A DNA stretch of 64,000 nucleotides. Origin: a virus. Location: IMG/VR virus record IMGVR_UViG_3300014806_000004; one strand, 5' to 3'. Numbering within the stretch: the first letter of the stretch is position 1; each line of letters opens with the position of its first letter. Under the pieces are notes generated by a model. It saw only the letters and a list, made by a program, of their open reading frames with translations, made no database searches and was not told the DNA's origin. This document shows, one piece after another, positions 54,373-64,000 of the stretch. Made by a program: the position numbers and the translations under genes.

Positions 54373-55230
54373 ATGAAACGAGAAGAGCTCAAACAACACG
54401 CGCAATCGCATTACGCAGACATTAAAGTGAGACTCAAGGAAGATACAGATCGCGCAATTATAAACTCTGAAATTTTTGGCCCCAATCTTCCTTTTCCGCT
54501 AAAACCGCAAGAAACCTACCATAATACCTTTTATCTTAAAGACCAAGATAGCGTATCCTGTCTATTTGGTTTAACCGATCGGAGCAAGACCGCAATCTTA
54601 AATTATGCAAGCTATAAACATCCAGGTGGTTACTTCCTTGGAGGCAGCTCTGCACAAGAAGAGGCATTGTGTCACGAAAGCAACCTTTATCCTATTCTTC
54701 TTGCTTTTGATGATACTTATTACGCATGGAATAGACAGAGACTAAATCGAGCCCTATATCTTGATAGAGCTATCTATACTCCTGATGTAGTATTTGAAAA
54801 AGACAATGGTAGAAAATTAGCTGATGTAATTACTTGTGCTTCTCCTAATTATAGAACAGCACATACTTATCAGCAAGTTCCTCTTTCTCTAAACAATAGG
54901 ATAATGGAAGAGAGAATTAATTTTATGTATCGGATTGCCGAGGCTAAGGGAGTGGAAAATTTAATCGCGGGAGCCTGGGGCTGTGGTGTTTTTATGCAAG
55001 ATCCATCAACGGTCGCCACCTTGCTCGTAAGCGCAGCCCGCAATTATAATATTCCAAATATTTATTTTGCAATTCCCGCAATTTTAGAATTTTCTTGGAG
55101 GTTTTGGAAAAATGTTCAAGCAATTAATTATCGCAAGACGAGATTTAAATATGTCTCCAGGGAAACTTGCCGCACAAGTTTCCCATGCTTCTATTGCTTT
55201 TCTTTTGGAAAAGTTATATTGGGGAAGTAA
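54373..55230 (+). CDS. Macrodomain protein of the bacterial PARG-like (DUF2263/TIGR02452) type
   Basis: NYASYKHPGGYFLGGSSAQEEALCHESNLY fits the PARG signature GGG-x6-8-QEE. GAWGCGVFMQDPSTVA is also present. The 3' 119 nt overlap the next gene in another frame. Confidence 0.5.
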   Translation: MKREELKQHAQSHYADIKVRLKEDTDRAIINSEIFGPNLPFPLKPQETYHNTFYLKDQDSVSCLFGLTDRSKTAILNYASYKHPGGYFLGGSSAQEEALCHESNLYPILLAFDDTYYAWNRQRLNRALYLDRAIYTPDVVFEKDNGRKLADVITCASPNYRTAHTYQQVPLSLNNRIMEERINFMYRIAEAKGVENLIAGAWGCGVFMQDPSTVATLLVSAARNYNIPNIYFAIPAILEFSWRFWKNVQAINYRKTRFKYVSRETCRTSFPCFYCFSFGKVILGK

Positions 55231-55549
55231 AGAAGTTGTTAAAGAAAGAGACGGTCTTATGTATCATATAGGAATAAGCCTCGATAGAGACTTATTCCAT
55301 AACTGGATAGCGGAAGCGGAGACCAAAGTAGTTTGTAGAGCGAAGAATAAGAATGATTTGCTAAAAGCTGTTGCAATGGCTAAAGAATTAGGATGGGAAG
55401 AGAATAAAGACTACTGGCTTATTTATGATGCTTGTAGGACGGAGTTAGAGCGTGAAGGCCCGGAAGGGACTTTGACGTGTATTGGATTTAGGCCAATGGA
55501 GGCGGAAGAAATTGATAAAATTGGGAAGAAGTATCAGCTTTATAATTAA
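55112..55549 (+). CDS. pth2: Peptidyl-tRNA hydrolase, PTH2 family
   Basis: It has LIIARRDLNMSPGKLAAQVSHASIAF (Pth2 catalytic region), ...KVVCRAKN..LL.AVAMAKELG and LIYDACRTELE..GTLTCIGFRP. Confidence 0.6.
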   Translation: MFKQLIIARRDLNMSPGKLAAQVSHASIAFLLEKLYWGSKEVVKERDGLMYHIGISLDRDLFHNWIAEAETKVVCRAKNKNDLLKAVAMAKELGWEENKDYWLIYDACRTELEREGPEGTLTCIGFRPMEAEEIDKIGKKYQLYN

Positions 55550-55712
55550 CATAATATTAATCGTATTGTTGTTAACTGCTTGCGGAAAGGAGAACGATCG
55601 TTATCCAAGGCTAGAGTATATTCCTACAATGTGGAGATCTGATGCGACTAATATTAAACTAGAGGATGGATATAATTTGATTTTTAATTTTGAAGCAACC
55701 GACGATGGATAA
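55512..55712 (+). CDS. Putative small lipoprotein
   Basis: Signal peptide with lipobox LLLTAC|GK. The start codon is uncertain (in-frame TTG candidates at 55482, 55512 and 55521). It overlaps the pth2 3' end. Confidence 0.3.
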   Translation: MIKLGRSISFIINIILIVLLLTACGKENDRYPRLEYIPTMWRSDATNIKLEDGYNLIFNFEATDDG

Positions 55713-55727
55713 GATGCGGAGAGAAGA

Positions 55728-55752
55728 AGTGAGTTCTTCTCTCTTTTTCGTT
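55728..55752 (+). terminator. Rho-independent terminator
   Basis: ggagagaagaaGTGAGttcttctctc followed by TTTTT. Confidence 0.55.
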
Positions 55753-55955
55753 ATTGAGATTGAAAAGTCGATTTAGATTTTGAAATGGCGTGGCAGAACG
55801 ATTTTACAAAAAAATTTCCAGTTTTTCCCAAAATACACGCCCCTCTTTCACATGGTAAAGTATTGAAGTGTAGTTGGCCTCTTTCACTCGTTAAAGTACG
55901 AAAGCAAGAAAGCACGCCCCTAAAGGAATACGCGCGCGTAAAGGGTTTATGCAAA

Positions 55956-55986
55956 CTGCACAACAAGATGTTATTTATTTTGTGCA
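55956..55986. promoter_or_regulatory. Palindromic operator pair TGCACAA-N16-TTGTGCAA
   Basis: The same inverted pair recurs at 59088-59119, 62216-62247, 63827-63857 and 63863-63903, with degenerate copies at 57655-57686 and 61059-61091. Confidence 0.5.
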
Positions 55987-56113
55987 AAAGAGAGAGAAAG
56001 AAATTTCAAAAAAACTATTGACAAGTGAGCATTTTGGTGGTAAACTGGACTTGTCCAGTAGGACAGAGACAAAAGCACGGCACTTTGAAAATTAAAAAAT
56101 TTCAAAAAAGGTA

Positions 56114-56142
56114 TTGACAAACTGCTAAAGGTTTGATACAAT
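56114..56142 (+). promoter_or_regulatory. Sigma-70-type promoter (TTGACA-17-TGaTACAAT). A second similar promoter lies at 56019, each preceded by an A-tract
   Basis: aaatttcaaaaaaggtaTTGACAaactgctaaaggtttgaTACAAT. The upstream copy is aaatttcaaaaaaactaTTGACAagtg. Confidence 0.5.
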
Positions 56143-56195
56143 ACAGACAGAACAAAAGAGAACCACATCACAAAAAGAAAGGGAGTCAAAAGAGT

Positions 56196-56570
56196 ATGAA
56201 AAAGATTGATTTTACCAATGAAGATCGAGCCATTATTATGGAGTATATGGCGGCTAAGATGGCTAAGTCTGCGGCGGAGGCGGCGGAGAAAGCAGCTAAG
56301 GCTAAGGCTAAAAAGCTATTCTCCAGATTAGGTAAGGCTTTTAAGGCTACGGACAAAACAAGTTATCTATATGGCACGGTACAAATGCAGGGTAAGGCGA
56401 AAGCGGTGGTATATAAAGAAACTACCGCAAAAGGAACGGTTGACTGGAAAGCCTATGCTATGGCATTAGGCGGGACAAAGGCCGAAGCAGAGCAATTCCG
56501 CAGACCTTCCGATGTTCGTACCTCTTTTGATTGGGCGACAAAGACCCAAGAAGAAGAAATTAGAGGATAA
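56196..56570 (+). CDS. Hypothetical basic Ala/Lys-rich protein
   Basis: RBS AAGGGAG, ATG 56196. It lies downstream of the tandem promoters. Confidence 0.4.
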   Translation: MKKIDFTNEDRAIIMEYMAAKMAKSAAEAAEKAAKAKAKKLFSRLGKAFKATDKTSYLYGTVQMQGKAKAVVYKETTAKGTVDWKAYAMALGGTKAEAEQFRRPSDVRTSFDWATKTQEEEIRG

Positions 56571-56574
56571 CAGT

Positions 56575-56610
56575 TTATAAACCCTGCCTTGCAAAACACA
56601 AGGCAAGGCA
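56575..56610 (+). terminator. Rho-independent terminator
   Basis: aaccctgccttgcAAAACACAAggcaaggcagggtt. Confidence 0.6.
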
Positions 56611-56644
56611 GGGTTATAATAATTAAAAGAAAGGGGCATACTAT

Positions 56645-56791
56645 ATGTATCAGTTACAAGTTTTAGCCAATGAGAAAATGCGCTATTATGAACCATTCAC
56701 CCTTTCAATGGCAAGATGGAAAGCCAGTCACGAGATAGTCAATCCTAATCATTGGATTGTGGATTTATCCAGTGGAGAAATCGTAGATTAA
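56645..56791 (+). CDS. Hypothetical small protein (48 aa)
   Basis: RBS AAAGGGG precedes ATG 56645. Confidence 0.3.
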   Translation: MYQLQVLANEKMRYYEPFTLSMARWKASHEIVNPNHWIVDLSSGEIVD

Positions 56792-56837
56792 AAAGAAGCT
56801 GACCTAACGGCTATACGGGGAGAAAGGATAAAAGACT

Positions 56838-57140
56838 ATGAACAATTATATTAAGTGGTTCGTTGGGCCTACTTTTAGAAAGCGTGAATTTATTAAACTT
56901 TTGCGGTATAAGATGAATGTGCGTTCCGCAGAGGTAGAGGACGGCATCATCTTAGACCTGGATGCTTTTAATGCCATGCGAGTGGCCTATATGCCACACT
57001 GGGCTTATATCAATAGAAAGTTTATCAATAGTAATCTGCATACCAGAATTGCAAGCGAAGACGAATATAAGGTTGCTATGATCGGAGATACAATCGGCAC
57101 TGAATGGGTTAAAGAACAGGAGGCAAAGAAATGGAAATGA
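56838..57140 (+). CDS. Hypothetical protein
   Basis: Intact ORF with RBS AAAGGATAAAAG. Confidence 0.4.
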   Translation: MNNYIKWFVGPTFRKREFIKLLRYKMNVRSAEVEDGIILDLDAFNAMRVAYMPHWAYINRKFINSNLHTRIASEDEYKVAMIGDTIGTEWVKEQEAKKWK

Positions 57141-57283
57141 GAATTATTAAGCGGATAGGAGGCGGCATTTGTGCCGCTCTCCTACTCTGGACAGTTCTTA
57201 GTTGGGCTGATATAGTGGCGGATAACTGTGAGCCAAACCCACAGCACAGCGAATATAATATGTTCGTTCTCATGACTAAATAA
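57137..57283 (+). CDS. Small membrane protein (48 aa)
   Basis: ATGA overlap with the upstream stop, plus a hydrophobic helix GGGICAALLLWTVLSW. Confidence 0.3.
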   Translation: MRIIKRIGGGICAALLLWTVLSWADIVADNCEPNPQHSEYNMFVLMTK

Positions 57284-57296
57284 TAGGAGAAAAAAA

Positions 57297-57530
57297 ATGT
57301 ATAGAGGGACTTATATCGACGCCATGGGCCGCAAGCGCAGAGAGATGGGATATTTCAGTCTTAATAAGCCCACTCTGAATAAACTCCATATACCAGTAAT
57401 TGTCCAAGCGAGAGATAAGACAAGTGCGGCGAATAAAATCAATAGGAAATATAAGTTGCGTATAAGTCCCAGCAATCTGCGGGAGGTGCCGATGGGCACG
57501 GGCTATCTCATGGAAACCATGGAGCTGTAA
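57297..57530 (+). CDS. Hypothetical protein
   Basis: RBS GGAG precedes the ORF, which is followed by the terminator at 57545-57576. Confidence 0.4.
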   Translation: MYRGTYIDAMGRKRREMGYFSLNKPTLNKLHIPVIVQARDKTSAANKINRKYKLRISPSNLREVPMGTGYLMETMEL

Positions 57531-57544
57531 AGGAATAATACTTG

Positions 57545-57576
57545 ACTGGCAATCTGCACAAAGATTGCCAGTCATT
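57545..57576 (+). terminator. Rho-independent terminator
   Basis: tgactggcaatcTGCACAAAGgattgccagtca followed by TTTTT. Confidence 0.55.
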
Positions 57577-57798
57577 TTTATGCACTTTTCCATATTGACT
57601 TTTCGCCGGGCCGCCAGCGTGCGCCGCGGCCCGAATTTTTATTTATTCGGCAATTTCAACAATTATATGACCGAAAGTCTGTGCAATTCGACGAAAGTTT
57701 TTCTCCCGAAATTACTTGACATTCCTCTTGTCATGTGTTATTATATACTTGTCCAGAGGGGCAAGGTCACAAAAAGAATTTGAAAGGAAGTAAAAGAA

Positions 57799-58038
57799 AT
57801 GACTTTGAAAATGATTGCAGGTCTGCTTTCTCCGCTCGCAGAAGATACCATGTTCTTTGACGGGAAAGGGGTCGAAATTATCAATGAGAATACCCAAGCT
57901 CATTACCATGAGCTACCTGATCACAAGATAACCCTGGGAGGAGACGTCATTGAGGCGTCTAAGGAATGGGTGCTGGGACTTCCGGTAACTGGTATTCAAG
58001 CAAGAGGCAACAATCTAATCATTTATGTAGATGGTTAA
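57799..58038 (+). CDS. Hypothetical protein
   Basis: Promoter TTGACA(57715)-17-TATTAT lies upstream. The ORF is followed by the hairpin gggagtggaggCCACAAAcctccactccc (58047-58078). Confidence 0.4.
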   Translation: MTLKMIAGLLSPLAEDTMFFDGKGVEIINENTQAHYHELPDHKITLGGDVIEASKEWVLGLPVTGIQARGNNLIIYVDG

Positions 58039-58100
58039 GAAAACTTGCGGGAGTGGAGGCCACAAACCTCCACTCCCCATGATAAAAAGGAGGAATAAAT

Positions 58101-58316
58101 ATGATTGCTGTTATTAAATTTGAAAGTGTAGAAAAATCTGCGGAGTTTGGAGACACAATTTGTAATATGGCTGGTTGGTGTTTGAATCATCCTCTTAATT
58201 CCAATGTTACCGGCTGTGTTCGTACTCTTGATTTTAATACCGGCGATAAACAAGATAGAGCCTTATATAATTATCTGCTAAAAATTGGAGCTTTCGAGGA
58301 GGTGGAACTAAAGTGA
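58101..58316 (+). CDS. Hypothetical protein
   Basis: RBS AAAGGAGG precedes ATG 58101. Confidence 0.4.
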   Translation: MIAVIKFESVEKSAEFGDTICNMAGWCLNHPLNSNVTGCVRTLDFNTGDKQDRALYNYLLKIGAFEEVELK

Positions 58317-58724
58317 GTATTGAGCGTTTACCGCATACATATCCTATCGGTTCCACTGTTTGGACAAATAAGGGATATGGCACAGTTCTACTTCACATTG
58401 GTAAATACCATCTGGTTTGGTTACAGAGATTAGGGCTGGCGTAATGCCGGCCCTATTGATTTTTTCAAAAAAATATATTATAATAATTATAGAAAAATAA
58501 AGAAAGGAGTTTTTCTAATGACCTTAGAAGTGCTGTGAAAGCACTCGCGGTTATTTTGGAGTTCTGTTTGAACTAGGATTCTTGTAAAAATTGTCCTATG
58601 TCTCAGTTCTGCCAGAAAATGCCTTGCGAGTGGTAAATGTTCCTTCCGATTGTTCTAAATCGGCGATTCCCGTGATGGAGTCGTTTTTCGCACGAGCCTA
58701 GGTCACTAGAATTTATTTATCAAA

Positions 58725-58958
58725 ATGCAAGAAACTACTTTCTCTCGCAAATTGGATTCAAGTGGTAGAATTATGATTCCGATTCGTTTGCGTGAACAAA
58801 TGGGACTTACTTCCGGTTAGGAATACTATTTCACTACTATGGTAAAAGATGGCAGAAAATACATCTGCATTGACTGCGGGTCGGTTAATTCTTCGCTTGA
58901 AGAAGCTATGAAAATTATCCAAGCAAACGGATTAAAGATTGTTGAAAATGCCGATTAA
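58725..58958 (+). CDS. AbrB/MazE-type (SpoVT_AbrB domain) small DNA-binding protein with one in-frame TAG
   Basis: KLDSSGRIMIPIRLREQMGLTSG-TAG-EYYF is the swapped-hairpin AbrB N-domain. It is preceded by a ~170-nt hairpin-rich leader. Confidence 0.45.
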
Positions 58959-59230
58959 CTTCTCAAAAGAAAGGGAGTTGTTGGTATGCAGAAATTAATG
59001 ACCTCCTGAAATTCAGGAGGTTCTTTTTTTATTCGTTCGCCCGGCCGTGCACCACAGGCGCGGCCGGATTTTTTATCAAGAGGCAATTTGCACAATTTTA
59101 GGCTCGAATTGTTGTGCAATCTGACGGAAGATTTTTTCCCAAAATTGCTTGACTTTCTATCTGTTATCTGTTATACTTGTATCATCAAGAGGGGAGAACA
59201 AAAGCCCTCGAAACAAAAGGAGAATGAGTT

Positions 59231-59464
59231 ATGTATCTGGTAATGGCTGACAGTAGAGAAAAGATTATCGGCGTTTCTGATACTGAAACTGGCGCACGCC
59301 ATGCGGGATGGGACTGGCTCAAGGCCCAGTATTCCGAAAGCGAGTGGAGCCAAATTCTGGAAGATATGGACTATGAGAATGAAGGGGACTTGCGGCATGA
59401 CCTTCTCATGGGCGCATATTGGGAAGATTTCGATATGGAGATTATCGAGGTTAAGAGGGTATAA
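59231..59464 (+). CDS. Hypothetical acidic protein
   Basis: Promoter TTGACT(59149)-17-TATACT lies upstream, with RBS AAAGGAG. Confidence 0.4.
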   Translation: MYLVMADSREKIIGVSDTETGARHAGWDWLKAQYSESEWSQILEDMDYENEGDLRHDLLMGAYWEDFDMEIIEVKRV

Positions 59465-59493
59465 ACCCTCTTAACCAGAAAAGGAGTATATAT

Positions 59494-59646
59494 ATGACTA
59501 CCTTCACAATGATTGTTTTGATTGCGTTTGTGGCCTGCCTTGCATGGCAGTTAATGGCGGCTGCTCAAAAAGGCTGTATTCGGCTTGAAATCATGTTTGC
59601 CGCAGAAATTCTAATGTTCGCATATTTGGCAAAAAATTTGATGTAA
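59494..59646 (+). CDS. Small membrane protein (50 aa)
   Basis: RBS AAGGAG and a single TM helix. Confidence 0.3.
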   Translation: MTTFTMIVLIAFVACLAWQLMAAAQKGCIRLEIMFAAEILMFAYLAKNLM

Positions 59647-59730
59647 AGGGTTGACAAACCGCTTAAACAGTGGTATAATCAATAATGTAAAGAGAAGGAA
59701 AACTCATTAAACCAGAAAGGAAATATTGCT

Positions 59731-59961
59731 ATGTATAGAATGACTGAGCAGGATAGACAGGGGATTATTCTTCTGCATAAGACCATGGAGGAGTTCTGCC
59801 CAGGAGAAGCAGCACAGGCAATGCTCCAGTCTTTGGGGAAATTCCTGCGGATCGGCATGTGTACTCCCGATGACGCGGCCGATATTATCAAGGGTATTTT
59901 CGATGAGGAAGCCGATAAGGCGGTTGATGAAATGACTATGATGGATTTACTTTCCTTGTAA
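59731..59961 (+). CDS. Hypothetical protein
   Basis: Promoter TTGACA-17-TGgTATAAT (59655-59685) lies upstream, with RBS GAAAGGAAA. Confidence 0.4.
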   Translation: MYRMTEQDRQGIILLHKTMEEFCPGEAAQAMLQSLGKFLRIGMCTPDDAADIIKGIFDEEADKAVDEMTMMDLLSL

Positions 59962-60055
59962 AAAGGGGTTGACAAATTGCCCCTTCTGTGGTACAATAAG
60001 ACTATGGAAGGGGCAGCCCCAAAAATAAATTAAAATAAGAAAGGGAGTTTTAGAA

Positions 60056-60454
60056 ATGCGTGTTACTAAGAGGATTGAAGCCTATATCAATGACGAGGTC
60101 AACAAGATTGCGAACGCCAAGCGAGAGGAAATCCGAGCCAAGTATGCGGGAGCTATGAAAGAGTTTGAGGATTTTATCGAGGAAGGCCGGAAAGAGATTG
60201 GGGCGCTGAATACAAAGATTATTGAGCGCGCCACGGCAAAGGGATATAAGCTCCGCCGCTATTATGACCCGGAGTGCGCCAAGTCAAATATGTGCAGTCT
60301 TTACAACCCCATCAATCAAACGATGGATGAAGAGCTGTCCACTGTGACAAAGTGGGTAGAGGAAAATGCAAGTCTGATTTGTGTCAAGCTGGAAATGGGC
60401 GGCGATATGAAAACTCTGTCTACTCTGCTGGACGAACTGCGGAAATCGCTTTAA
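60056..60454 (+). CDS. Hypothetical protein
   Basis: Promoter TTGACA-TGgTACAAT (59967-59997) lies upstream, with RBS AAGGGAG. Confidence 0.4.
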   Translation: MRVTKRIEAYINDEVNKIANAKREEIRAKYAGAMKEFEDFIEEGRKEIGALNTKIIERATAKGYKLRRYYDPECAKSNMCSLYNPINQTMDEELSTVTKWVEENASLICVKLEMGGDMKTLSTLLDELRKSL

Positions 60455-60509
60455 GGAAAGGAGGCGCGGGAGTATAGGACTTGTATTCTATGCTCCCGCG
60501 ATAAAAAAA

Positions 60510-60968
60510 ATGAGAGCTGTTGGTATTGTTCGACATATTGATGACCTAGGGCGTATTGTTATTCCTAGAGAAATTCGTAGGAGTATGCGAATTAGAGAAG
60601 GCGACCCTATGGAAATTTTTCTTGATGGCGACTGTATAGCCTTCAAGAAATATTCTCCACTATCTTTTTTCGTTGACCATGCCCACGAAATGCGAAATGC
60701 CCTTTCTGTTAATCACATTTCCGCGGCGATCTTCGATTCAGATAAACTTTTAAGCGGGCCTAGTTCTTTCAAAATTTCTATACCACCAGATGAATGGAGT
60801 AATATCAGCCAACCTGCGACAGCGTGGAAATCTATGTTTATTACTCCCATTTTTTCTGATGGGGGACAAATTGGATTCATTTGTTACAAAAATCTGCACA
60901 ATGATGAATCTATTCACGAAATGGTTAAATTAGTCGCAAGGTATTTTTCAAATATGGCTGAAAGATAA
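60510..60968 (+). CDS. SpoVT/AbrB-family transcriptional regulator (AbrB N-domain plus a C-terminal GAF-like domain)
   Basis: MRAVGIVRHIDDLGRIVIPREIRRSMRIREGDPMEIFLDGDCIAFKKY is the AbrB N-domain, and the ~100-aa C-terminus is arranged as in SpoVT. Confidence 0.6.
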   Translation: MRAVGIVRHIDDLGRIVIPREIRRSMRIREGDPMEIFLDGDCIAFKKYSPLSFFVDHAHEMRNALSVNHISAAIFDSDKLLSGPSSFKISIPPDEWSNISQPATAWKSMFITPIFSDGGQIGFICYKNLHNDESIHEMVKLVARYFSNMAER

Positions 60969-61155
60969 AAGAAGGGCTTCGGCCCTTCTTTTTTTATACA
61001 CTAAAAATTCGACGGCGCGCTGACGCACGCGGCGCGCCGAGTTTTCTTATTTGTAAGTTCTATACAATTTTTGTCTTGAAATCTTGTGCAATTTGCCATC
61101 TTGCAATTATCCTTAAATTATGGTATTATTAGTACAGAAAAAGGAGGGGTACTAA

Positions 61156-61404
61156 ATGAAACCTTCAAAGTTTATTCAGCCCAATGAATACTTAACCGTG
61201 GCTGAAATTTATCGTAGACAATTCGGGCATACTACTACCCCGGTTAATTATGAGATTTATATACGAACTGTGCTTTTACAAGACCCTCTGATCTATATAG
61301 ATTATATGTCAATGCCTTATAAGGTATATCGGCGTAAAACTTTTTTTGAAAAACTTGTTGACAAGGTGTGCAATGAGTGGTATAATAAAACAAAAGGAGA
61401 TTGA
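61156..61404 (+). CDS. Hypothetical protein
   Basis: Promoter TTGCAA-17-TGgTATTAT lies upstream, with RBS AAAGGAGGGG. Confidence 0.4.
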   Translation: MKPSKFIQPNEYLTVAEIYRRQFGHTTTPVNYEIYIRTVLLQDPLIYIDYMSMPYKVYRRKTFFEKLVDKVCNEWYNKTKGD

Positions 61405-61410
61405 TATACA

Positions 61411-61872
61411 ATGACTAAAAAAATGCTCTGCTTTGACATGGATGGAACTATCGCGGACTTGTATGCAGTCCCTAATTGGCTCGAAAAACTCCGCAATGGA
61501 GACCCTACCCCATTCCGAGACGCGGCCCCTATGTGGGACATGGAAGCCCTCCGAAATGCGCTTCTAAAAGCAATCAATAACGGATGGGAAATTAGAGTAA
61601 TTACATGGCTACCACCTGAAAGCACTCCCGAATATAAGAAAGCAGTCACAGCCGCAAAAAAGGAATGGCTTGCAAGGTATAAATTTCCGGCCCATAAATG
61701 TCATTGTGTGGCATACGGAACGACCAAAGCCAAATGTGTATTCCGTAGTTTCTATGAACCGCCGTTTATCCTTTTTGATGATAATGATAAAATTAGGCAC
61801 GGTTGGCATTTAGGAGATACAATAAATCCAGGAGAGACAGACATAATCGAATATATCAACAATCTAAACTGA
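61411..61872 (+). CDS. HAD-superfamily 5'(3')-deoxyribonucleotidase-like protein
   Basis: MLCFDMDGTIADLY is HAD motif I (DxDGT), and FILFDDNDK is a motif-IV-like segment, as in NT5C-type phage nucleotidases. Confidence 0.5.
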   Translation: MTKKMLCFDMDGTIADLYAVPNWLEKLRNGDPTPFRDAAPMWDMEALRNALLKAINNGWEIRVITWLPPESTPEYKKAVTAAKKEWLARYKFPAHKCHCVAYGTTKAKCVFRSFYEPPFILFDDNDKIRHGWHLGDTINPGETDIIEYINNLN

Positions 61873-61918
61873 GTAAGAGGGCGGGGTTAAAATCCCCGCC
61901 CCGCAAAGAAAGGGAGTT

Positions 61919-62119
61919 TTGCAAATGGAAATTCGGAAAGTTAGTAGGCTTGTTCTCGGTTCGATAGAGAAAAAAGCCTTGAGAGATGCGTCAATCCTCA
62001 TAAGCCAGATTAGCAGGAATATGGAAGATAATGAAATTGATGATAACTTTCCTGTCTCTCTTGATGATCTGGTATATGGAATAGATGAACTAATCAACAG
62101 GGAATATATTGGATATTAA
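61919..62119 (+). CDS. Hypothetical protein
   Basis: It is flanked by terminators at 61882-61905 and 62125-62155. Confidence 0.35.
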   Translation: MQMEIRKVSRLVLGSIEKKALRDASILISQISRNMEDNEIDDNFPVSLDDLVYGIDELINREYIGY

Positions 62120-62513
62120 AAATACCCCTCTCAATAATGAGAGGGGTATTTTTTTATTGTCATTTGAGCGGCCCGCGCTTGGGCGGTGCGGGCCGAATTT
62201 TTTTCTTTGTAAATGTTGCACAATTTTGGCGGCAAAAAGTTGTGCAATTTGCCATCTTGTAATTCTCCCAAAAGTATGGTATTATTATCATGTCAGGAGG
62301 GAAGGGCCAAGAAATCAAGAGGTCGCGAACTCTTAGAAAGTAAAGGAAGAAAATGGGTATTTGTGTTATAAGTCGAGCGAACGCCTTTGGAATAGGCCAT
62401 TCCATCGTCCAGTAGCTTGCAATAAATCGCAACAAAATTTCCTTTTCCTCTTGACACCAAGCCTTAAATGTGCTATAATAATACCATCAAGAGAAGAAAG
62501 GACTTGATAGATT

Positions 62514-63338
62514 ATGATTGATAAACGCAGACATTATGTGCTGGTGGTTGACACTGAAACCGCCAACACACTAACCGAAACCGTTCCCGCTGAAATCGGG
62601 GAGGATGGGGAGATTATCACTCCTGAGCGTGTCCGCATGGATATGTCAAATGTACTGGTATATGACTGCGGTTGGGCTGTAGTAGACACCAAGGGCAATA
62701 TTTACGAAACTGCAAGTTTTGTAAATCGGGACATTTTCAATGACGAGCGGGATTTAATGCGGACGGCCTATTATAATTGGAAAATCCCCCGCTATGTTGA
62801 GGAATTGCGGGCCGGCACTCGTAAGATGGCTACAACCTATGAAATCCGGCAGGCTATGCTTGATACTATCGAGCGATACGGCATTAAAGAGGTGGCTGCT
62901 TATAATGCCCGGTTTGACGATAACGCTCTGCGGGTCACTCAACGATGGGTCACTTGCTCTAAGTTTCGCTACTGGTTCCCGTTTGACAGTGTGGAAATTT
63001 GGGACATTATGAAGATGACACAAGATGTTATCTGCAATATGCCCACTTATAAGAAATTCTGTCAGGAAAACGGATATGTCCAAGCCAATGGCGTTCCTCG
63101 TAAGACTGCGGAAATCGTGTGGCGGTTTATTTCTGGCAATACCGATTTTGAAGAAAGTCATACGGGGCTTGAGGATGTTCTCATTGAGGCGGAAATCATG
63201 TGGTATTGTATGCGTCAGCATAAGCCCATGAGAAAGGCCCTGTATGAGAATAAGAGAGAGTTTCCACCTATGACAGATTTTCAGCGTCAACTTTCCGCAA
63301 GTATGCGTTCAATTCCAACTATCCGGGTAGGGGCTTAA
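62514..63338 (+). CDS. DEDDh 3'-5' exonuclease (DnaQ/KapD-like)
   Basis: VVDTETA is Exo I, YNARFDDNAL is Exo II and HTGLEDVLIEAEI is Exo III (H-x4-D). Confidence 0.65.
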   Translation: MIDKRRHYVLVVDTETANTLTETVPAEIGEDGEIITPERVRMDMSNVLVYDCGWAVVDTKGNIYETASFVNRDIFNDERDLMRTAYYNWKIPRYVEELRAGTRKMATTYEIRQAMLDTIERYGIKEVAAYNARFDDNALRVTQRWVTCSKFRYWFPFDSVEIWDIMKMTQDVICNMPTYKKFCQENGYVQANGVPRKTAEIVWRFISGNTDFEESHTGLEDVLIEAEIMWYCMRQHKPMRKALYENKREFPPMTDFQRQLSASMRSIPTIRVGA

Positions 63339-63365
63339 AGCCCCGCCCGGCAGAAAGGAAATAAT

Positions 63366-63557
63366 ATGTCTCAAGTTCATTGTATGCGGTGGAGTTGCCC
63401 GCATTATGCCGAGGAAGGCATGGACCCAGAACAAATCTATGATACTATCTGTCCAGATTTTGACACGGAATCACTTTGTTGCTCTTTGGGTGAGCCATGG
63501 TTCGACTGTGACGAATATCAGAGACAATATGGAGTTGATGATTTCGAGGAGGAATAA
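63366..63557 (+). CDS. Hypothetical Cys-rich acidic protein
   Basis: RBS AAAGGAAATAAT precedes ATG 63366. Confidence 0.35.
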   Translation: MSQVHCMRWSCPHYAEEGMDPEQIYDTICPDFDTESLCCSLGEPWFDCDEYQRQYGVDDFEEE

Positions 63558-63558
63558 A

Positions 63559-63741
63559 ATGGTAACAAAAACTGTATATACCTCTTCTCTGTGTGCAGAT
63601 GCCGTTTACATGGCAATTCAAATTATTGAGCGTATGGGATGGTGTCATGATGATATTGACGAAGATGGAAATATGCTGGTAAATGTTCCCATTGAGGATG
63701 AACACCTGTTTGATTTTCTGGATAACTGTATTTTCTGTTAA
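63559..63741 (+). CDS. Hypothetical protein (60 aa)
   Basis: It is coupled to the upstream gene and followed by the terminator gaagggcttcggcccttc. Confidence 0.35.
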   Translation: MVTKTVYTSSLCADAVYMAIQIIERMGWCHDDIDEDGNMLVNVPIEDEHLFDFLDNCIFC

Positions 63742-63760
63742 GAAGGGCTTCGGCCCTTCT
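63742..63760 (+). terminator. Rho-independent terminator; an identical copy is at 60971-60989
   Basis: gaagggcttcggcccttc followed by TTTTTTTATAC in both copies. Confidence 0.6.
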
Positions 63761-64000
63761 TTTTTTATACAAAATTTGAGCGGGTCGCGCAGGAACGGCG
63801 CGACCCGAGTTTTTCTTTGTAAATTCTGCACAAAAATTTCAGCCCCGTTTTGTGCAAAATTCTGCACAAAAACTTTCTCCCAAAATTCTGATTTCTTGTG
63901 CAATTTGACGCTTGCAATCTGCTTTTGCTTGTGGTAAAATACATTCAGAAAGTGAGAGAGACGAACGGCAGACAGCGACAGCGAATTTCTTAAAAATCTT

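What the first reader, a model, noticed from the sequence alone, without database searches (positions are those of the whole stretch)
57590..63960. Early region built from repeated ~180-bp intergenic cassettes that create single-gene transcription units
At least five intergenic spacers share one layout. The layout starts with a terminator hairpin, identical (gaagggcttcggcccttc) at 60971 and 63742. Next comes a distinct GC-rich hairpin (about 70% GC in a 30% GC genome) at 57605, 59039, 61009, 62169 or 63777, followed by a T-run and the TGCACAA operators. Last is a promoter (TTGACA/TTGCAA-17-TGgTATTAT-like) and an RBS. Most units between these cassettes contain one or two small genes. This looks like a modular, moron-like organisation. 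The GC-rich hairpins could be RNA processing or antitermination signals rather than simple terminators.
Basis: seen in the sequence. Interest (0 to 1): 0.55.

Follow-up and report, generated by a model that had tools for sequence, protein, structure and literature searches.

The report
Repeated terminator-operator-promoter cassettes in phage early region
A gut phage that reads the TAG stop codon as glutamine organises its standard-code early genes with at least five copies of one rigid, roughly 150-base control cassette (terminator hairpin, three evenly spaced protein-binding boxes, promoter); this is a new variant of a known kind of phage regulatory module, not a new kind of system.

Summary
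Five spacers (57.6, 59.0, 61.0, 62.2 and 63.8 kb) share one layout, and it recurs 5-7 times per genome at syntenic positions in related 140-150 kb phage contigs.

Each cassette is a rigid unit:
- An ordinary terminator (T1) lies upstream.
- A GC hairpin with a T-run (T2) follows.
- Three short palindromic boxes sit 24-26 bp apart (TTGYRCAA, TTGYRCAA, TCCCGAAA).
- A sigma-A-type promoter with an extended -10 docks at offsets differing by about 21, 35 or 44 bp.

The T2 stem covaries: 95% of cells are paired and 8 of 10 pairs show double changes. The hairpin-to-promoter segment is 86-94% conserved, against 61-80% for neighbouring genes.

I read the cassette as an insulating terminator, a cooperative operator array and an early promoter. 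It defines co-regulated operons in the TAG-free early region of a TAG-to-Gln recoded phage. The cassettes also persist as conserved islands while the genes between them are swapped, as with PeSL cassettes of T4-type phages.

The RNA-processing or antitermination idea is not supported. The box-binding protein is unknown. AbrB-like genes inside the array, one carrying an in-frame TAG, are candidates only.

The parts
55956..56142 (+). Cassette 0 (outside the finding). Box pair CTGCACAA (55956-55963) and TTGTGCAA (55980-55987) without a GC hairpin, followed by tandem promoters 56018-56046 and 56114-56142.
   Evidence: The box pair is 24 bp start to start. Its centre is about -82 from the inferred start site of the first promoter.
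57543..57581 (+). T1 of cassette C1: ordinary terminator of the upstream unit, with TGCACAA in its loop.
   Evidence: -21.8 kcal/mol, tail TTTTTA.
57607..57744 (+). Cassette C1. T2 GC hairpin 57607-57633 plus T-run; degenerate box1 57655-57662; box2 57679-57686; box3 TCCCGAAA 57704-57711; promoter TTGACA (57716) -17- TATTAT (57744).
   Evidence: (103 bits). It is 93% identical to L209 and L210.
58445..58999 (+). TAG-containing module inside the array. It has its own AT-rich promoter (58456-58484), a small Cys-rich ORF (TAG at 58574; frameshifted near 58535 relative to L209), and an AbrB-like gene 58725-58958 with an in-frame TAG at 58818.
   Evidence: Relatives carry TAG at other codons, aligned to Gln or Lys in other sequences.
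59000..59030 (+). T1 of cassette C2.
   Evidence: -14.8 kcal/mol, tail CTTTTTTT.
59041..59177 (+). Cassette C2. T2 59041-59067; box1 TTGCACAA 59088-59095; box2 TTGTGCAA 59112-59119; box3 TCCCAAAA 59137-59144; promoter TTGACT (59149) -17- TATACT (59177).
   Evidence: (109 bits). The positional orthologue in relatives is 73-82% identical.
59651..59997 (+). Two box-less internal promoters: 59651-59679 and 59969-59997. The second is a 65-nt promoter plus stem-loop module shared at 94% identity with phage phAss-1, where it precedes an unrelated gene.
60510..60968 (+). 152-aa protein with an N-terminal AbrB/MazE (SpoVT-like) DNA-binding domain. Candidate regulator, but absent from relatives L069, L029, L209 and L210.
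60969..60997 (+). T1 of cassette C3, identical to the T1 of C5.
   Evidence: (family D12).
61013..61129 (+). Cassette C3. T2 61013-61039; degenerate box1 CTATACAA 61060-61067; box2 61084-61091; promoter TTGCAA (61101) -17- TATTAT (61129), with box3 TCCTTAAA 61110-61117 inside the promoter spacer.
   Evidence: (110 bits).
62118..62160 (+). T1 of cassette C4.
   Evidence: -23.4 kcal/mol.
62169..62285 (+). Cassette C4. T2 62169-62195; box1 62216-62223; box2 62240-62247; promoter TTGTAA (62257) -17- TATTAT (62285), with box3 TCCCAAAA 62266-62273 in the spacer. A 165-nt leader and a second promoter at 62451-62479 follow.
   Evidence: (110 bits).
63740..63768 (+). T1 of cassette C5.
63781..63940 (+). 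Cassette C5 (long form). T2 63781-63807; boxes at 63826, 63850, 63862 and 63896; box3 TCCCAAAA 63878-63885; promoter TTGCAA (63912) -17- TAAAAT (63940). The 5' UTR is conserved to the window end.
   Evidence: (110 bits).

Best explanation
Each cassette is a composite transcription-control module of the phage's standard-code early region. It has four parts.

1. The GC hairpin plus T-run (T2) is an intrinsic terminator that belongs to the cassette. It backs up the upstream unit's own terminator (T1), so no read-through polymerase enters the control region.
2. Three short pseudo-palindromic boxes sit in a fixed 24-26 bp register: TTGYRCAA, TTGYRCAA, TCCCGAAA. They form a cooperative operator array for one DNA-binding protein that has not been identified.
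3. A host sigma-A-type promoter with a TG-extended -10 is docked onto this array. Box3 lies either inside the promoter spacer (proximal TTGYRCAA box centred at about -48) or about 21, 35 or 44 bp further upstream.
4. A strong ribosome-binding site follows, in some cassettes after a leader and a second promoter.

I infer that host RNA polymerase fires all cassette promoters at the start of infection. Later a phage protein occupies the box arrays and switches the whole set together, most likely off, because box3 overlaps the core promoter in most copies. T2 would keep that switch from being bypassed or displaced by upstream transcription.

As a by-product, the cassettes are conserved islands between which gene cargo is replaced during evolution.

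Shown: the anatomy, the geometry, stem covariation, conservation above the coding level, synteny and cargo turnover. Inferred: termination, protein binding, the direction of regulation and its timing.
For: Structure:
- T2 folds at -18.5 to -22 kcal/mol, independently of T1.
- Four of five are called terminator-like by the consensus scan.
- Across 49 copies (45 distinct), 95.3% of stem cells pair. Eight of 10 pairs show compensatory double changes. 0 of 500 shuffles reach this on four of five measures and 1 of 500 on the fifth; controls slid by 1-3 columns pair at 26-46%.
- Nearly every copy keeps at least 3 T within 2 nt of the stem.
- In L111 T2 directly follows the upstream stop codon with no T1.

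Operator array:
- Box positions from the model start are +55, +79 and +105 (mostly within 1-2 nt) in most of the 39 cassettes examined. These come from seven paralogue classes and several phage lineages.
- The -35 hexamer sits at +95/96, +116/117, +131 or +139/140.
- The proximal box centre falls at -48/-49 in most copies.
- TGCACAA enrichment is confined to this region.

Selection:
- Against L209 and L210, the hairpin-to-promoter segment is 86-94% identical.
- Flanking coding sequences are 61-80% identical and core-promoter spacers 59-86%.

Promoters and early status:
- Promoters match 9-11 of 12 consensus positions, with TG.
- The region is TAG-free: 0 of 2,205 codons, against 2.3% in late genes. 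No gene ends in TAG.

Modularity:
- Homology between relatives breaks at the 3' edges of cassettes: window positions 57802, 59227 and 62302 against L209, and the -35 of class A and the start codon after class C in L046 against L059 and L069.
- L169 has an extra cassette in front of the 60056 homologue.
- L069 and L029 lack one cassette.
Against: - There are no transcript or binding data.
- T1 plus T2 in tandem is redundant for termination alone, yet both are kept in about 35 of 39 copies.
- The T-run after T2 is short (3-5 T) and offset by 1-2 nt in many relatives.
- Conservation covers the spacers between the boxes, not only the boxes. A plain operator model does not require that.
- The fixed hairpin-to-box distance could be inherited rather than selected.
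- One copy (L069:1950) has a consensus promoter firing straight into the hairpin.
- Cassette 0 has boxes but no hairpin.
- Three of the five cassette promoters match only 9 of 12 consensus positions, weaker than the box-less internal promoters at 11-12. Activation rather than repression therefore cannot be excluded.
Confidence: 0.6

Rival explanations
1. T2 is not mainly a terminator. It is a regulated RNA element: an attenuator that a phage antiterminator overrides to give middle-phase read-through, or a 3'-end stabiliser or processing site for the upstream message. T1 does the actual terminating.
For: - T1 is almost always present as well, which makes T2 redundant as a terminator.
- T2 has a shorter, offset T-run than T1.
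- T2 keeps a fixed distance to the boxes.
- T2 is 100% conserved in C1 and C2 against relatives whose genes are 62-78% identical.
Against: - Stems of 8-11 bp are too short for RNase III, going by what is established for the T7 early sites.
- No conserved loop or flank motif is shared beyond the CGG...CCG stem ends.
- Known processive antitermination signals act downstream of a promoter, whereas T2 lies upstream of one.
- There is no Rfam match at gathering score.
- T2 is the sole terminator-like element in the L111 cassettes.
Confidence: 0.15
2. The cassettes exist mainly as recombination linkers or mobile regulatory cassettes in the strict PeSL sense. Their conservation would then reflect frequent homologous exchange between co-infecting phages, not selection on a regulatory nucleoprotein complex.
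For: - Homology breakpoints fall at cassette edges.
- Cassette number and position vary between relatives.
- Two cassettes share an identical 32-nt T1 next to unrelated genes.
- Cassette cores are more conserved than the genes.
- A second promoter plus stem-loop module (59960-60024) is 94% identical in an otherwise unrelated phage, in front of an unrelated gene.
Against: - Paralogues within a genome are only 58-73% identical, with about 20 nt as the longest shared run apart from T1.
- Positional orthologues are recognisable, so the copies are old rather than recently spread.
- Most breakpoints among relatives are not at cassettes.
- The strict register of boxes relative to the promoter points to function.
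- This rival is compatible with the best explanation rather than exclusive of it.
Confidence: 0.12
3. The hairpin acts as DNA rather than RNA. An extruded hairpin would serve as a promoter for a phage-borne RNA polymerase (as with N4) or as an origin or iteron-like element, with the 24-bp boxes as iterons.
For: - Stem structure is conserved while stem sequence varies.
- Repeats with roughly 24-bp periodicity lie next to the hairpin.
- The hairpin-to-box spacing is fixed.
Against: - Five to seven copies spread over about 10 kb, always intergenic and co-oriented with the genes, do not fit an origin.
- A conserved T-run is unnecessary for an N4-type hairpin promoter.
- No phage RNA polymerase or initiator was identified near the array in the window, although only 64 kb of about 148 kb is visible.
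Confidence: 0.05
4. The similarity is chance or low-complexity AT-rich spacer sequence.
For: The spacers are T- and A-rich between the elements.
Against: - All ten pairwise gapless identities exceed the maximum of 20,000 random pairs.
- Model hits reach 103-110 bits.
- The cassettes are conserved in at least 20 related loci, with covariation in the stem.
Confidence: 0.01

Closest known systems
PeSL (promoter-early stem-loop) cassettes of T4-type phages (Arbiol et al. 2010, PMC2839356; Comeau et al. 2014, PMC4122927)
   Same: - Both are short composite motifs that combine a host-sigma early promoter with a GC-rich stem-loop terminator.
- Both are repeated many times in a plastic region full of small genes of unknown function.
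- Both sit immediately upstream of those genes.
- Both are associated with insertion, deletion and replacement breakpoints between relatives.
   Different: - There is no sequence homology, the hosts differ (Firmicutes-type promoters here) and the phage lineage is unrelated.
- The PeSL stem-loop usually overlaps or lies within the promoter. Here it lies 85-130 nt upstream, at a fixed distance from a three-box operator array that PeSLs lack.
- There are 5-7 copies per genome here, against about 50.
- Paralogues are old (58-73% identical).
- No mini-circle evidence is available.
Tripartite cooperative operators of lambdoid phages (OR1-OR2-OR3), and the phi29 p4 sites upstream of promoters A3 and A2c
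   Same: - Multiple short pseudo-palindromic sites lie about 23-24 bp apart next to or overlapping a promoter.
- Upstream sites are on the same helical face as the polymerase.
- Inverted repeats are separated by about 15 bp.
- These comparisons are recalled from established literature and are a lead, not a test.
   Different: - The box sequences are unrelated.
- The same array is copied at 5-7 promoters instead of one or two control regions.
- No CI-, Cro- or p4-like protein was detected.
Host-takeover or early modules with dense promoter-terminator punctuation (SPO1 terminal-redundancy genes, the terminal repeat region of Twort-like phages), and morons
   Same: - Both are arrays of very small early genes.
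- Many strong host-type promoters and terminators are packed into a few kb.
   Different: - Those regions are not described, to my knowledge, as built from one conserved hairpin plus operator cassette in rigid register.
- The units here are 3-5 gene operons, not single promoter-gene-terminator morons.
phAss-1 / proposed Phassvirus group of TAG-recoded human gut phages (Babkin et al. 2023, PMC10607447)
   Same: - Genome size is similar (135-150 kb) and so is TAG-to-Gln recoding concentrated in structural genes.
- The predicted hosts are Clostridia.
- Both carry the 65-nt promoter module found at 59960-60024.
   Different: - phAss-1 has only weak cassette-like matches (32 bits or less).
- The paper does not mention promoters, terminators or repeats.
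- Nucleotide similarity to the window is otherwise absent.

Membership tests
Intrinsic (Rho-independent) terminator, applied to the GC hairpin T2 | A stable GC-rich stem-loop whose pairing is maintained by selection. | tested here: met
   Folding energy is -18.5 to -22 kcal/mol. Across copies 95.3% of stem cells pair, and 8 of 10 pairs show compensatory changes.
Intrinsic (Rho-independent) terminator, applied to the GC hairpin T2 | A U-tract immediately 3' of the stem, on the strand of the upstream genes. | tested here: met
   In the window, 4-7 T start 1-2 nt after the stem. Relatives have 3-5 T. There is no A-tract upstream, so the element is unidirectional.
Intrinsic (Rho-independent) terminator, applied to the GC hairpin T2 | Transcripts actually end there. 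| not testable with these tools
   This needs term-seq, 3' RACE or in vitro transcription.
PeSL cassettes of T4-type phages | A composite of a host-sigma early promoter and a stem-loop terminator in one short repeated intergenic motif. | tested here: met
   The definition comes from PMC2839356.
PeSL cassettes of T4-type phages | The stem-loop is placed within or overlapping the promoter, or in the AT-rich region just upstream of -35. | tested here: not met
   In the main cassette the hairpin's 5' end is 122-166 nt upstream of the inferred start site. The separate P59969 module does have a stem enclosing the -10 element.
PeSL cassettes of T4-type phages | Indel and replacement breakpoints between close relatives coincide with the cassettes. 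| tested here: inconclusive
   Breakpoints fall at cassette edges at window positions 57802, 59227, 60973 and 62302, and at classes A and C in the L046 clade. A similar number of breakpoints lie elsewhere.
PeSL cassettes of T4-type phages | Cassette-to-cassette recombination products (mini-circles) exist. | not testable with these tools
   This needs PCR or long reads on phage DNA.
PeSL cassettes of T4-type phages | Common descent with the T4-type motifs. | tested here: not met
   The phage lineage and host type are different, and the phage database shows no similarity. The relationship is analogy only.
Repressor or activator operator array | A repeated (pseudo)palindromic motif enriched at promoters. 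| tested here: met
Repressor or activator operator array | Fixed position or helical phase relative to the core promoter. | tested here: met
   The proximal box is centred at -48/-49, -58 or -69. Box3 lies in the promoter spacer or 12, 27 or 34 nt upstream of the -35 hexamer. Start sites are inferred, not mapped.
Repressor or activator operator array | A cognate DNA-binding protein is identified. | tested here: inconclusive
   The only recognisable DNA-binding genes in the array are AbrB/MazE-like. The TAG-bearing one co-occurs with cassettes in every locus that spans its position. The 152-aa one does not.
RNase III processing sites (T7 early region type) | A long (about 20 bp or more) imperfect duplex between cistrons of one transcript. 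| tested here: not met
   Stems are 8-11 bp and are followed by a T-run and a promoter.
Processive antitermination RNA (nut, put, EAR type) | Located in the transcribed leader downstream of a promoter, with a conserved sequence or two-stem fold. | tested here: not met
   The hairpin lies upstream of the cassette promoter. There is no Rfam hit at gathering score.
MITE or mobile GC-cluster element | Near-identical copies, either orientation, insertion anywhere, with terminal repeats or target duplications. | tested here: not met
   Copies are 58-73% identical, always co-oriented and intergenic, and syntenic across relatives. No isolated GC hairpins occur elsewhere in the window.

The most novel reading that the evidence does not exclude
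The cassette array could be the cis-acting half of a switch that couples transcription timing to the genetic-code change.

The conserved AbrB-like gene embedded in the array (58725-58958) carries an in-frame TAG. It can therefore be translated in full only after the phage's suppressor tRNA is active. Its product would then bind the three-box arrays and shut off (or re-programme) every cassette promoter at once. The end of standard-code early expression would thus be tied to the onset of TAG-to-Gln decoding.

Three observations fit this reading:
- TAG sits at three different codons of this gene in different lineages (codons 25, 32 and 40), aligned to Gln or Lys in other sequences.
- The adjacent small Cys-rich gene also carries TAG, at two alternative positions.
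- The module has a distinct promoter family.

Two related loci (L069 and L047, identical in these genes) have no TAG in either gene, and no binding evidence exists.
Probability: 0.1. Interest if true: 0.8.

Novelty: new variant of a known kind. Interest (0 to 1): 0.5.

Why it matters
Stop-codon-recoded gut phages are thought to use recoding to time late gene expression, but the cis-regulatory logic of their early phase has not been described. The one paper on the nearest named group (phAss-1) does not mention promoters, terminators or repeats.

These cassettes supply three things:
- A concrete early regulon: every promoter that carries the box array.
- A defined operator geometry to test.
- Candidate regulators encoded inside the array.

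They also extend the PeSL idea, in which conserved terminator-promoter cassettes frame exchangeable small genes, from T4-type phages of Gram-negative hosts to an unrelated lineage with Firmicutes-type signals. The compact insulated promoter module could be reused as a genetic part for Clostridia-type hosts.

If the operators turn out to be ordinary and the hairpin a plain terminator, the finding is a well-documented but unsurprising example of phage early-gene organisation.

Tried and rejected
- GenBank phage records: a distant blastn search of 57000-64000 gave only two short hits, so no annotated close relative exists there.
- phAss-1: the covariance model found only weak matches in its terminal 20 kb (32 bits or less). 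The cassette is not shared with that genus.
Only L160, L169, L111 and L175 were useful.
- Rfam at a permissive E-value: only sub-threshold chance hits to terminator-containing leaders and sRNAs.
- Literature search for the box sequence: returned unrelated primer hits.
- Concerted evolution or recent mobility of cassettes: rejected. Paralogues are 58-73% identical and positional orthologues remain recognisable.
- Box1 and box2 as an RNA or DNA hairpin: rejected. The arms are conserved in sequence, degenerate copies are not compensated (C1, C3, class B), and class A has direct rather than inverted copies.
- An antisense promoter inside the box region: the minus-strand TATAAT-like sequences have only about 13-nt spacing to any -35-like hexamer (by inspection).
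- The 152-aa AbrB/SpoVT-like protein as the obligatory box binder: weakened. L069, L029, L209 and L210 keep their cassettes but lack this gene in the sequenced stretch.
- My first automated T1 detector undercounted (28 of 39). Refolding showed T1 present in about 35 of 39 copies.
- Not used: structure prediction, large protein homology searches and the metagenome scan. None would identify the box-binding protein or show where transcripts end.

Full report
OBSERVATION

Five spacers start at about 57.54, 59.00, 60.97, 62.12 and 63.74 kb. Each contains, in this order:
- An ordinary hairpin with a long T-run (T1).
- A second hairpin that is almost pure G+C, followed by A/G and 4-7 T (T2).
- TGCACAA/TTGTGCA motifs.
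- A -35/-10 pair with a TG-extended -10 element.
- A strong Shine-Dalgarno sequence.

The repeat finder groups the T2 regions, the box regions and the T-rich linker into families. It also shows that 32 nt around the T1 hairpins at 60969 and 63740 are identical.

Several statistics put this above chance:
- TGCACAA occurs 19 times in the window against 6.5 +/- 2.8 expected. Twelve of the 19 lie in the last 8 kb.
- In 54-64 kb, terminator-like sites number 22 against 7.7 +/- 2.8 expected, and promoter-like sites 40 against 25.7 +/- 4.9.
- Anchored on the first stem base, the five 114-nt cores are 46-68% identical without gaps. Random pairs of windows from the same 10 kb give 26 +/- 4% (maximum 44%).
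- A covariance model of the core scores the five copies at 103-110 bits and finds nothing comparable in the other 56 kb.
- A scan for GC-only hairpins finds them only in these five places.

Numerical corrections: the hairpins are 81-93% GC, the region is 41% GC and the window 34.6%.

CONTEXT

The window belongs to a phage that reads TAG as glutamine.
- Allowing TAG as a sense codon triples the ORF content and restores long minus-strand structural genes, for example a 2,908-codon ORF with 100 in-frame TAGs.
- The late genes hold 276 TAG in 12,023 codons.
- The plus-strand genes from 54.3 to 64 kb hold none in 2,205 codons.
- No gene anywhere ends in TAG.

The cassette array therefore lies in the part of the genome that an unmodified host can translate. 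This fits an early region as proposed for recoded phages. The nearest named group is phAss-1, described in PMC10607447, but it shares only one 65-nt element with the window.

The genes between cassettes are mostly unknown. Recognisable ones include:
- An AbrB/MazE-type protein of 152 aa (60510-60968).
- A deoxyribonucleotidase-like protein (61411-61872).
- Upstream of the array, a PARG-like macro-domain protein and a PTH2 peptidyl-tRNA hydrolase.

RELATIVES

A pattern scan of IMG/VR with the inverted box pair, followed by BLAST, recovered about 15 loci from 120-150 kb phage contigs. Their early regions are syntenic at 70-79% identity.

A protein-based scan of genome contigs found two closer relatives. 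These are single contigs of 149 and 148 kb binned with Oscillospiraceae and Eubacterium MAGs (L209 and L210).

The model finds 5-7 cassettes per locus (4 in L029) in the loci that span the array. It finds weaker copies in more distant phages (L031, L035, L111, L175). The array extends one cassette past the end of the window.

ANATOMY

Aligning copies on the -10 element or on the model start shows a rigid unit. Positions from the model start are:
- Hairpin: +9 to +36.
- Box1 (TTGYRCAA): +55.
- Box2 (TTGYRCAA, usually TTGTGCAATTTGAC): +79.

These positions hold, mostly within 1-2 nt, in most of the 39 cassettes examined.

The promoter is attached at a small number of offsets. The -35 hexamer sits at +95/96, which places box3 inside the promoter spacer. 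Otherwise it sits at +116/117, +131 or +139/140, and the longest forms carry an extra box next to the -35.

Assuming transcription starts 7 nt after the -10 element, the proximal TTGYRCAA box is centred at -48/-49 in most copies. In the others it is at -58 or -69.

A box pair without a hairpin also precedes the tandem promoters at 56018 and 56114.

T1 is present in front of T2 in about 35 of 39 cassettes. T1 and T2 fold independently, at -14 to -23 and -18.5 to -22 kcal/mol respectively.

SELECTION

Across 49 copies (45 distinct sequences):
- The T2 stem pairs in 95.3% of cells.
- Eight of 10 pairs show changes on both sides.
- No shuffle of 500 reaches the observed value on four of the five measures; one does for pair types.
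- Sliding the partner by 1-3 columns drops pairing to 26-46%.

That alignment was fitted to the model. However, the same register is visible in the ungapped alignments.

Identity between the window and L209/L210:
- T2 in C1 and C2: 96-100%.
- T2 in C4 and C5: 63%, with compensating changes in the stem (for C5).
- Segment from the hairpin to the -35 hexamer: 86-94% in C1, C2 and C5, 80% in C4.
- Neighbouring coding sequences: 61-80%.
- Core-promoter spacers: 59-86%.

The constraint therefore covers the whole box region, including the DNA between the boxes.

Within a genome the paralogues are 58-73% identical. Positional orthologues are only slightly closer. The copies are old and maintained, not recently spread.

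MODULARITY

Genes between cassettes turn over while the cassettes stay.
- Against L209, homology stops at 57802 and 59227, the start codons just after C1 and C2. It also breaks at 59983 (inside promoter 59969), at 60973 (the T1 of C3) and at 62302 (just after the -10 of C4).
- In the L046 clade, homology with L059 and L069 breaks at the -35 of the first cassette. Homology with L059 also breaks at the start codon after the third.
- L069 and L029 lack one cassette plus the 152-aa AbrB gene.
- L169 has an additional full cassette in front of the homologue of 60056. In the window that gene has only a simple promoter.
- In L031 and L210 a cassette directly precedes the nucleotidase gene. In the window an 82-codon ORF and an extra promoter intervene.
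- About as many breakpoints lie away from cassettes, so cassettes are not the only exchange points.

Separately, the promoter at 59969 is a 65-nt module with a stem enclosing the -10 element.
- It is 94% identical in phAss-1 and in L216.
- In those phages it precedes genes unrelated to 60056.
- One change in the stem is compensated.

MECHANISM

Shown:
- A structure-selected hairpin with a T-run.
- Three boxes in fixed register.
- A host-type promoter in fixed phase with the boxes.
- Conservation above the coding level.
- TAG-free cargo.

Inferred:
- T2 terminates any polymerase that passes T1.
- The boxes bind a protein cooperatively. The 24-bp centre-to-centre spacing matches what is known for the lambda tripartite operators, and the upstream position resembles the phi29 p4 sites. 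Both comparisons are from memory and are leads only.
- The host sigma-A polymerase uses the promoters early.
- A later phage protein then occupies the arrays. Because box3 lies in the promoter spacer in most copies, I favour shut-off over activation.

A dedicated terminator directly upstream makes sense in this scheme. Read-through would otherwise bypass the repression and strip the bound protein. That would explain why T2 travels with the cassette even where T1 exists.

I put 0.6 on this composite reading.

The predicted transcription units are not single genes.
- Each interval holds 3-5 ORFs, with internal box-less promoters at 58456, 59651, 59969, 61358 and 62451.
- T-run terminators occur only at the interval ends, plus one at 58431.
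- This should give nested, co-terminal messages.

RIVALS

- T2 as a regulated attenuator, 3' stabiliser or processing site (0.15). For: the T1/T2 redundancy and the fixed spacing. Against: the short stems, the position upstream of promoters, the lack of a conserved loop motif, and its role as sole terminator in L111.
- Cassettes as primarily recombination linkers (0.12). This is compatible with the main reading and partly supported. The paralogues seem too diverged to explain their own conservation.
- A DNA-level hairpin promoter or an origin (0.05). This does not fit the conserved T-run or the number and placement of copies.
- Chance: excluded.

COMPARISON WITH KNOWN SYSTEMS

The closest described system is the PeSL cassette of T4-type phages (PMC2839356 and PMC4122927).

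Shared features:
- A host-type early promoter combined with a GC-rich stem-loop terminator.
- Repetition in plastic regions, upstream of small unknown genes.
- Links to gene replacement between relatives.

Differences:
- The lineage and host type are different.
- There are far fewer copies per genome.
- The hairpin lies well upstream of the promoter instead of inside it.
- An operator array in rigid register is present here and absent from PeSLs.

This is an analogue, not a member. I rate it a new variant of a known kind.

THE TAG MODULE

Inside the array, between 58445 and 58999, lies a module with a different, AT-rich promoter family. It contains two small genes that carry in-frame TAG:
- A Cys-rich peptide.
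- A 77-aa AbrB-like protein.

In relatives the TAG sits at other codons, aligned to Gln or Lys in other sequences. Two related loci (L069 and L047, identical in these genes) have none.

The AbrB-like gene is present in every related locus that spans its position, and also in the more distant L035. That makes it a candidate for a regulator produced only once TAG suppression is active. This is speculation, at about 0.1 probability.

DEAD ENDS

- The short-motif IMG/VR scan, the motif literature search and the permissive Rfam search were uninformative.
- My first T1 detector undercounted and was corrected by refolding.

Noticed in passing
window 14000-52700 (minus strand) against 54373-64000 (plus strand): The genome uses TAG as a sense codon (Gln). 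Late genes hold 276 TAG in 12,023 codons, for example 100 in a 2,908-codon tape-measure-like ORF. The plus-strand early block holds none in 2,205 codons, and no gene ends in TAG. No tRNA gene lies in the window, so any suppressor tRNA is encoded elsewhere in the genome.
   Followed up: yes
window 58445-58999: A module inside the early block carries in-frame TAG in both of its small genes: the Cys-rich peptide (TAG at 58574) and the AbrB-like gene 58725-58958 (TAG at 58818). Relatives have TAG at different codons (25 or 40 in the AbrB-like gene, a second site in the peptide), aligned to Gln or Lys in other sequences. L069 and L047 have none.
   Followed up: yes
window 58519-58540: Relative to L209 and L210, the small Cys-rich ORF in the window has one extra base (GCTGTGAAAGCA against GCTAAAGGCA). 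This puts the ATG out of frame with the conserved part. It may be a frameshift, a sequencing error or an alternative GTG start.
   Followed up: partly
window 58637-58725: The 89-nt spacer between the two TAG-module genes is 93% identical to L209 and L210, more than the flanking coding sequences (75-86%). The AbrB-like ATG at 58725 has no obvious Shine-Dalgarno sequence. This may be a structured or regulatory RNA segment.
   Followed up: no
window 58456-58500; also L046:3514 and 6596, L038, L037, L066, L043, L051, L175, L031: This is a second repeated promoter family (TTGATTTTT...AAAAAATATRYTATAATAATTATAGAAA). It drives the TAG module and recurs in related and more distant phage contigs. It may be a middle or late promoter type.
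   Followed up: partly
window 59960-60024; L089 (phAss-1 record 133517-133582); L212, L218, L216: A 65-nt promoter module has a stem (TTGCCCCTTC...GAAGGGGCAG) enclosing the -10 element. It is 94% identical in otherwise unrelated phages, in front of genes unrelated to 60056, with one compensated stem change. It behaves like a mobile promoter plus stem-loop cassette.
   Followed up: yes
window 56580-56615, 58049-58077, 60465-60500, 61879-61901, 63319-63348: GC-rich hairpins without T-runs sit at gene junctions inside the operons. The stop codon of 62514-63338 lies in the loop of one of them. They may be mRNA-stabilising or processing structures, or weak attenuators.
   Followed up: no
window 55830-55945: Three imperfect direct repeats (CGCCCCTCTTTCACATGGTAAAGTA, GGCCTCTTTCACTCGTTAAAGTACG, CACGCCCCTAAAGGAATACGCGCGCGTAAAGGG) lie just upstream of the first box pair and the tandem promoters. 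The stretch just upstream (55746-55843), reaching into the first repeat, is conserved in relatives at about 76%.
   Followed up: no
window 54373-55549: The first plus-strand genes encode a microbial PARG-like macro-domain protein (Pfam E = 9e-26) and a PTH2 peptidyl-tRNA hydrolase (E = 1e-22). The first may counter ADP-ribosylation-based defence. The second is notable in a phage that changes decoding.
   Followed up: partly
window 57745-57770, 59178-59200, 61130-61155, 62286-62310, 63941-63970: Transcripts predicted from the cassette promoters begin with purine-rich, Shine-Dalgarno-like runs (CAGAGGGG, CAAGAGGGGAG, CAGGAGGGAAGGG, CAGAAAGTGAGAGAG) well upstream of the real ribosome-binding site. 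This resembles 5' stabiliser (STAB-SD) elements of Bacillus (recalled from the literature, not tested).
   Followed up: no
window 62286-62513: The C4 promoter is followed by a 165-nt leader and then a second consensus promoter (62451). The same tandem arrangement occurs at 56018/56114 and downstream of C5 in L209. The leader holds a 20-codon ORF (62354-62416) that ends in TAG and would extend by 13 codons under TAG read-through. This stretch does not align to L209.
   Followed up: no
L069:1950-2065 (minus strand): In one divergent cassette copy a consensus TTGACA-17-TATAAT promoter fires directly into the GC hairpin, and the TTGYRCAA boxes are lost. The main model does not explain this.
   Followed up: no
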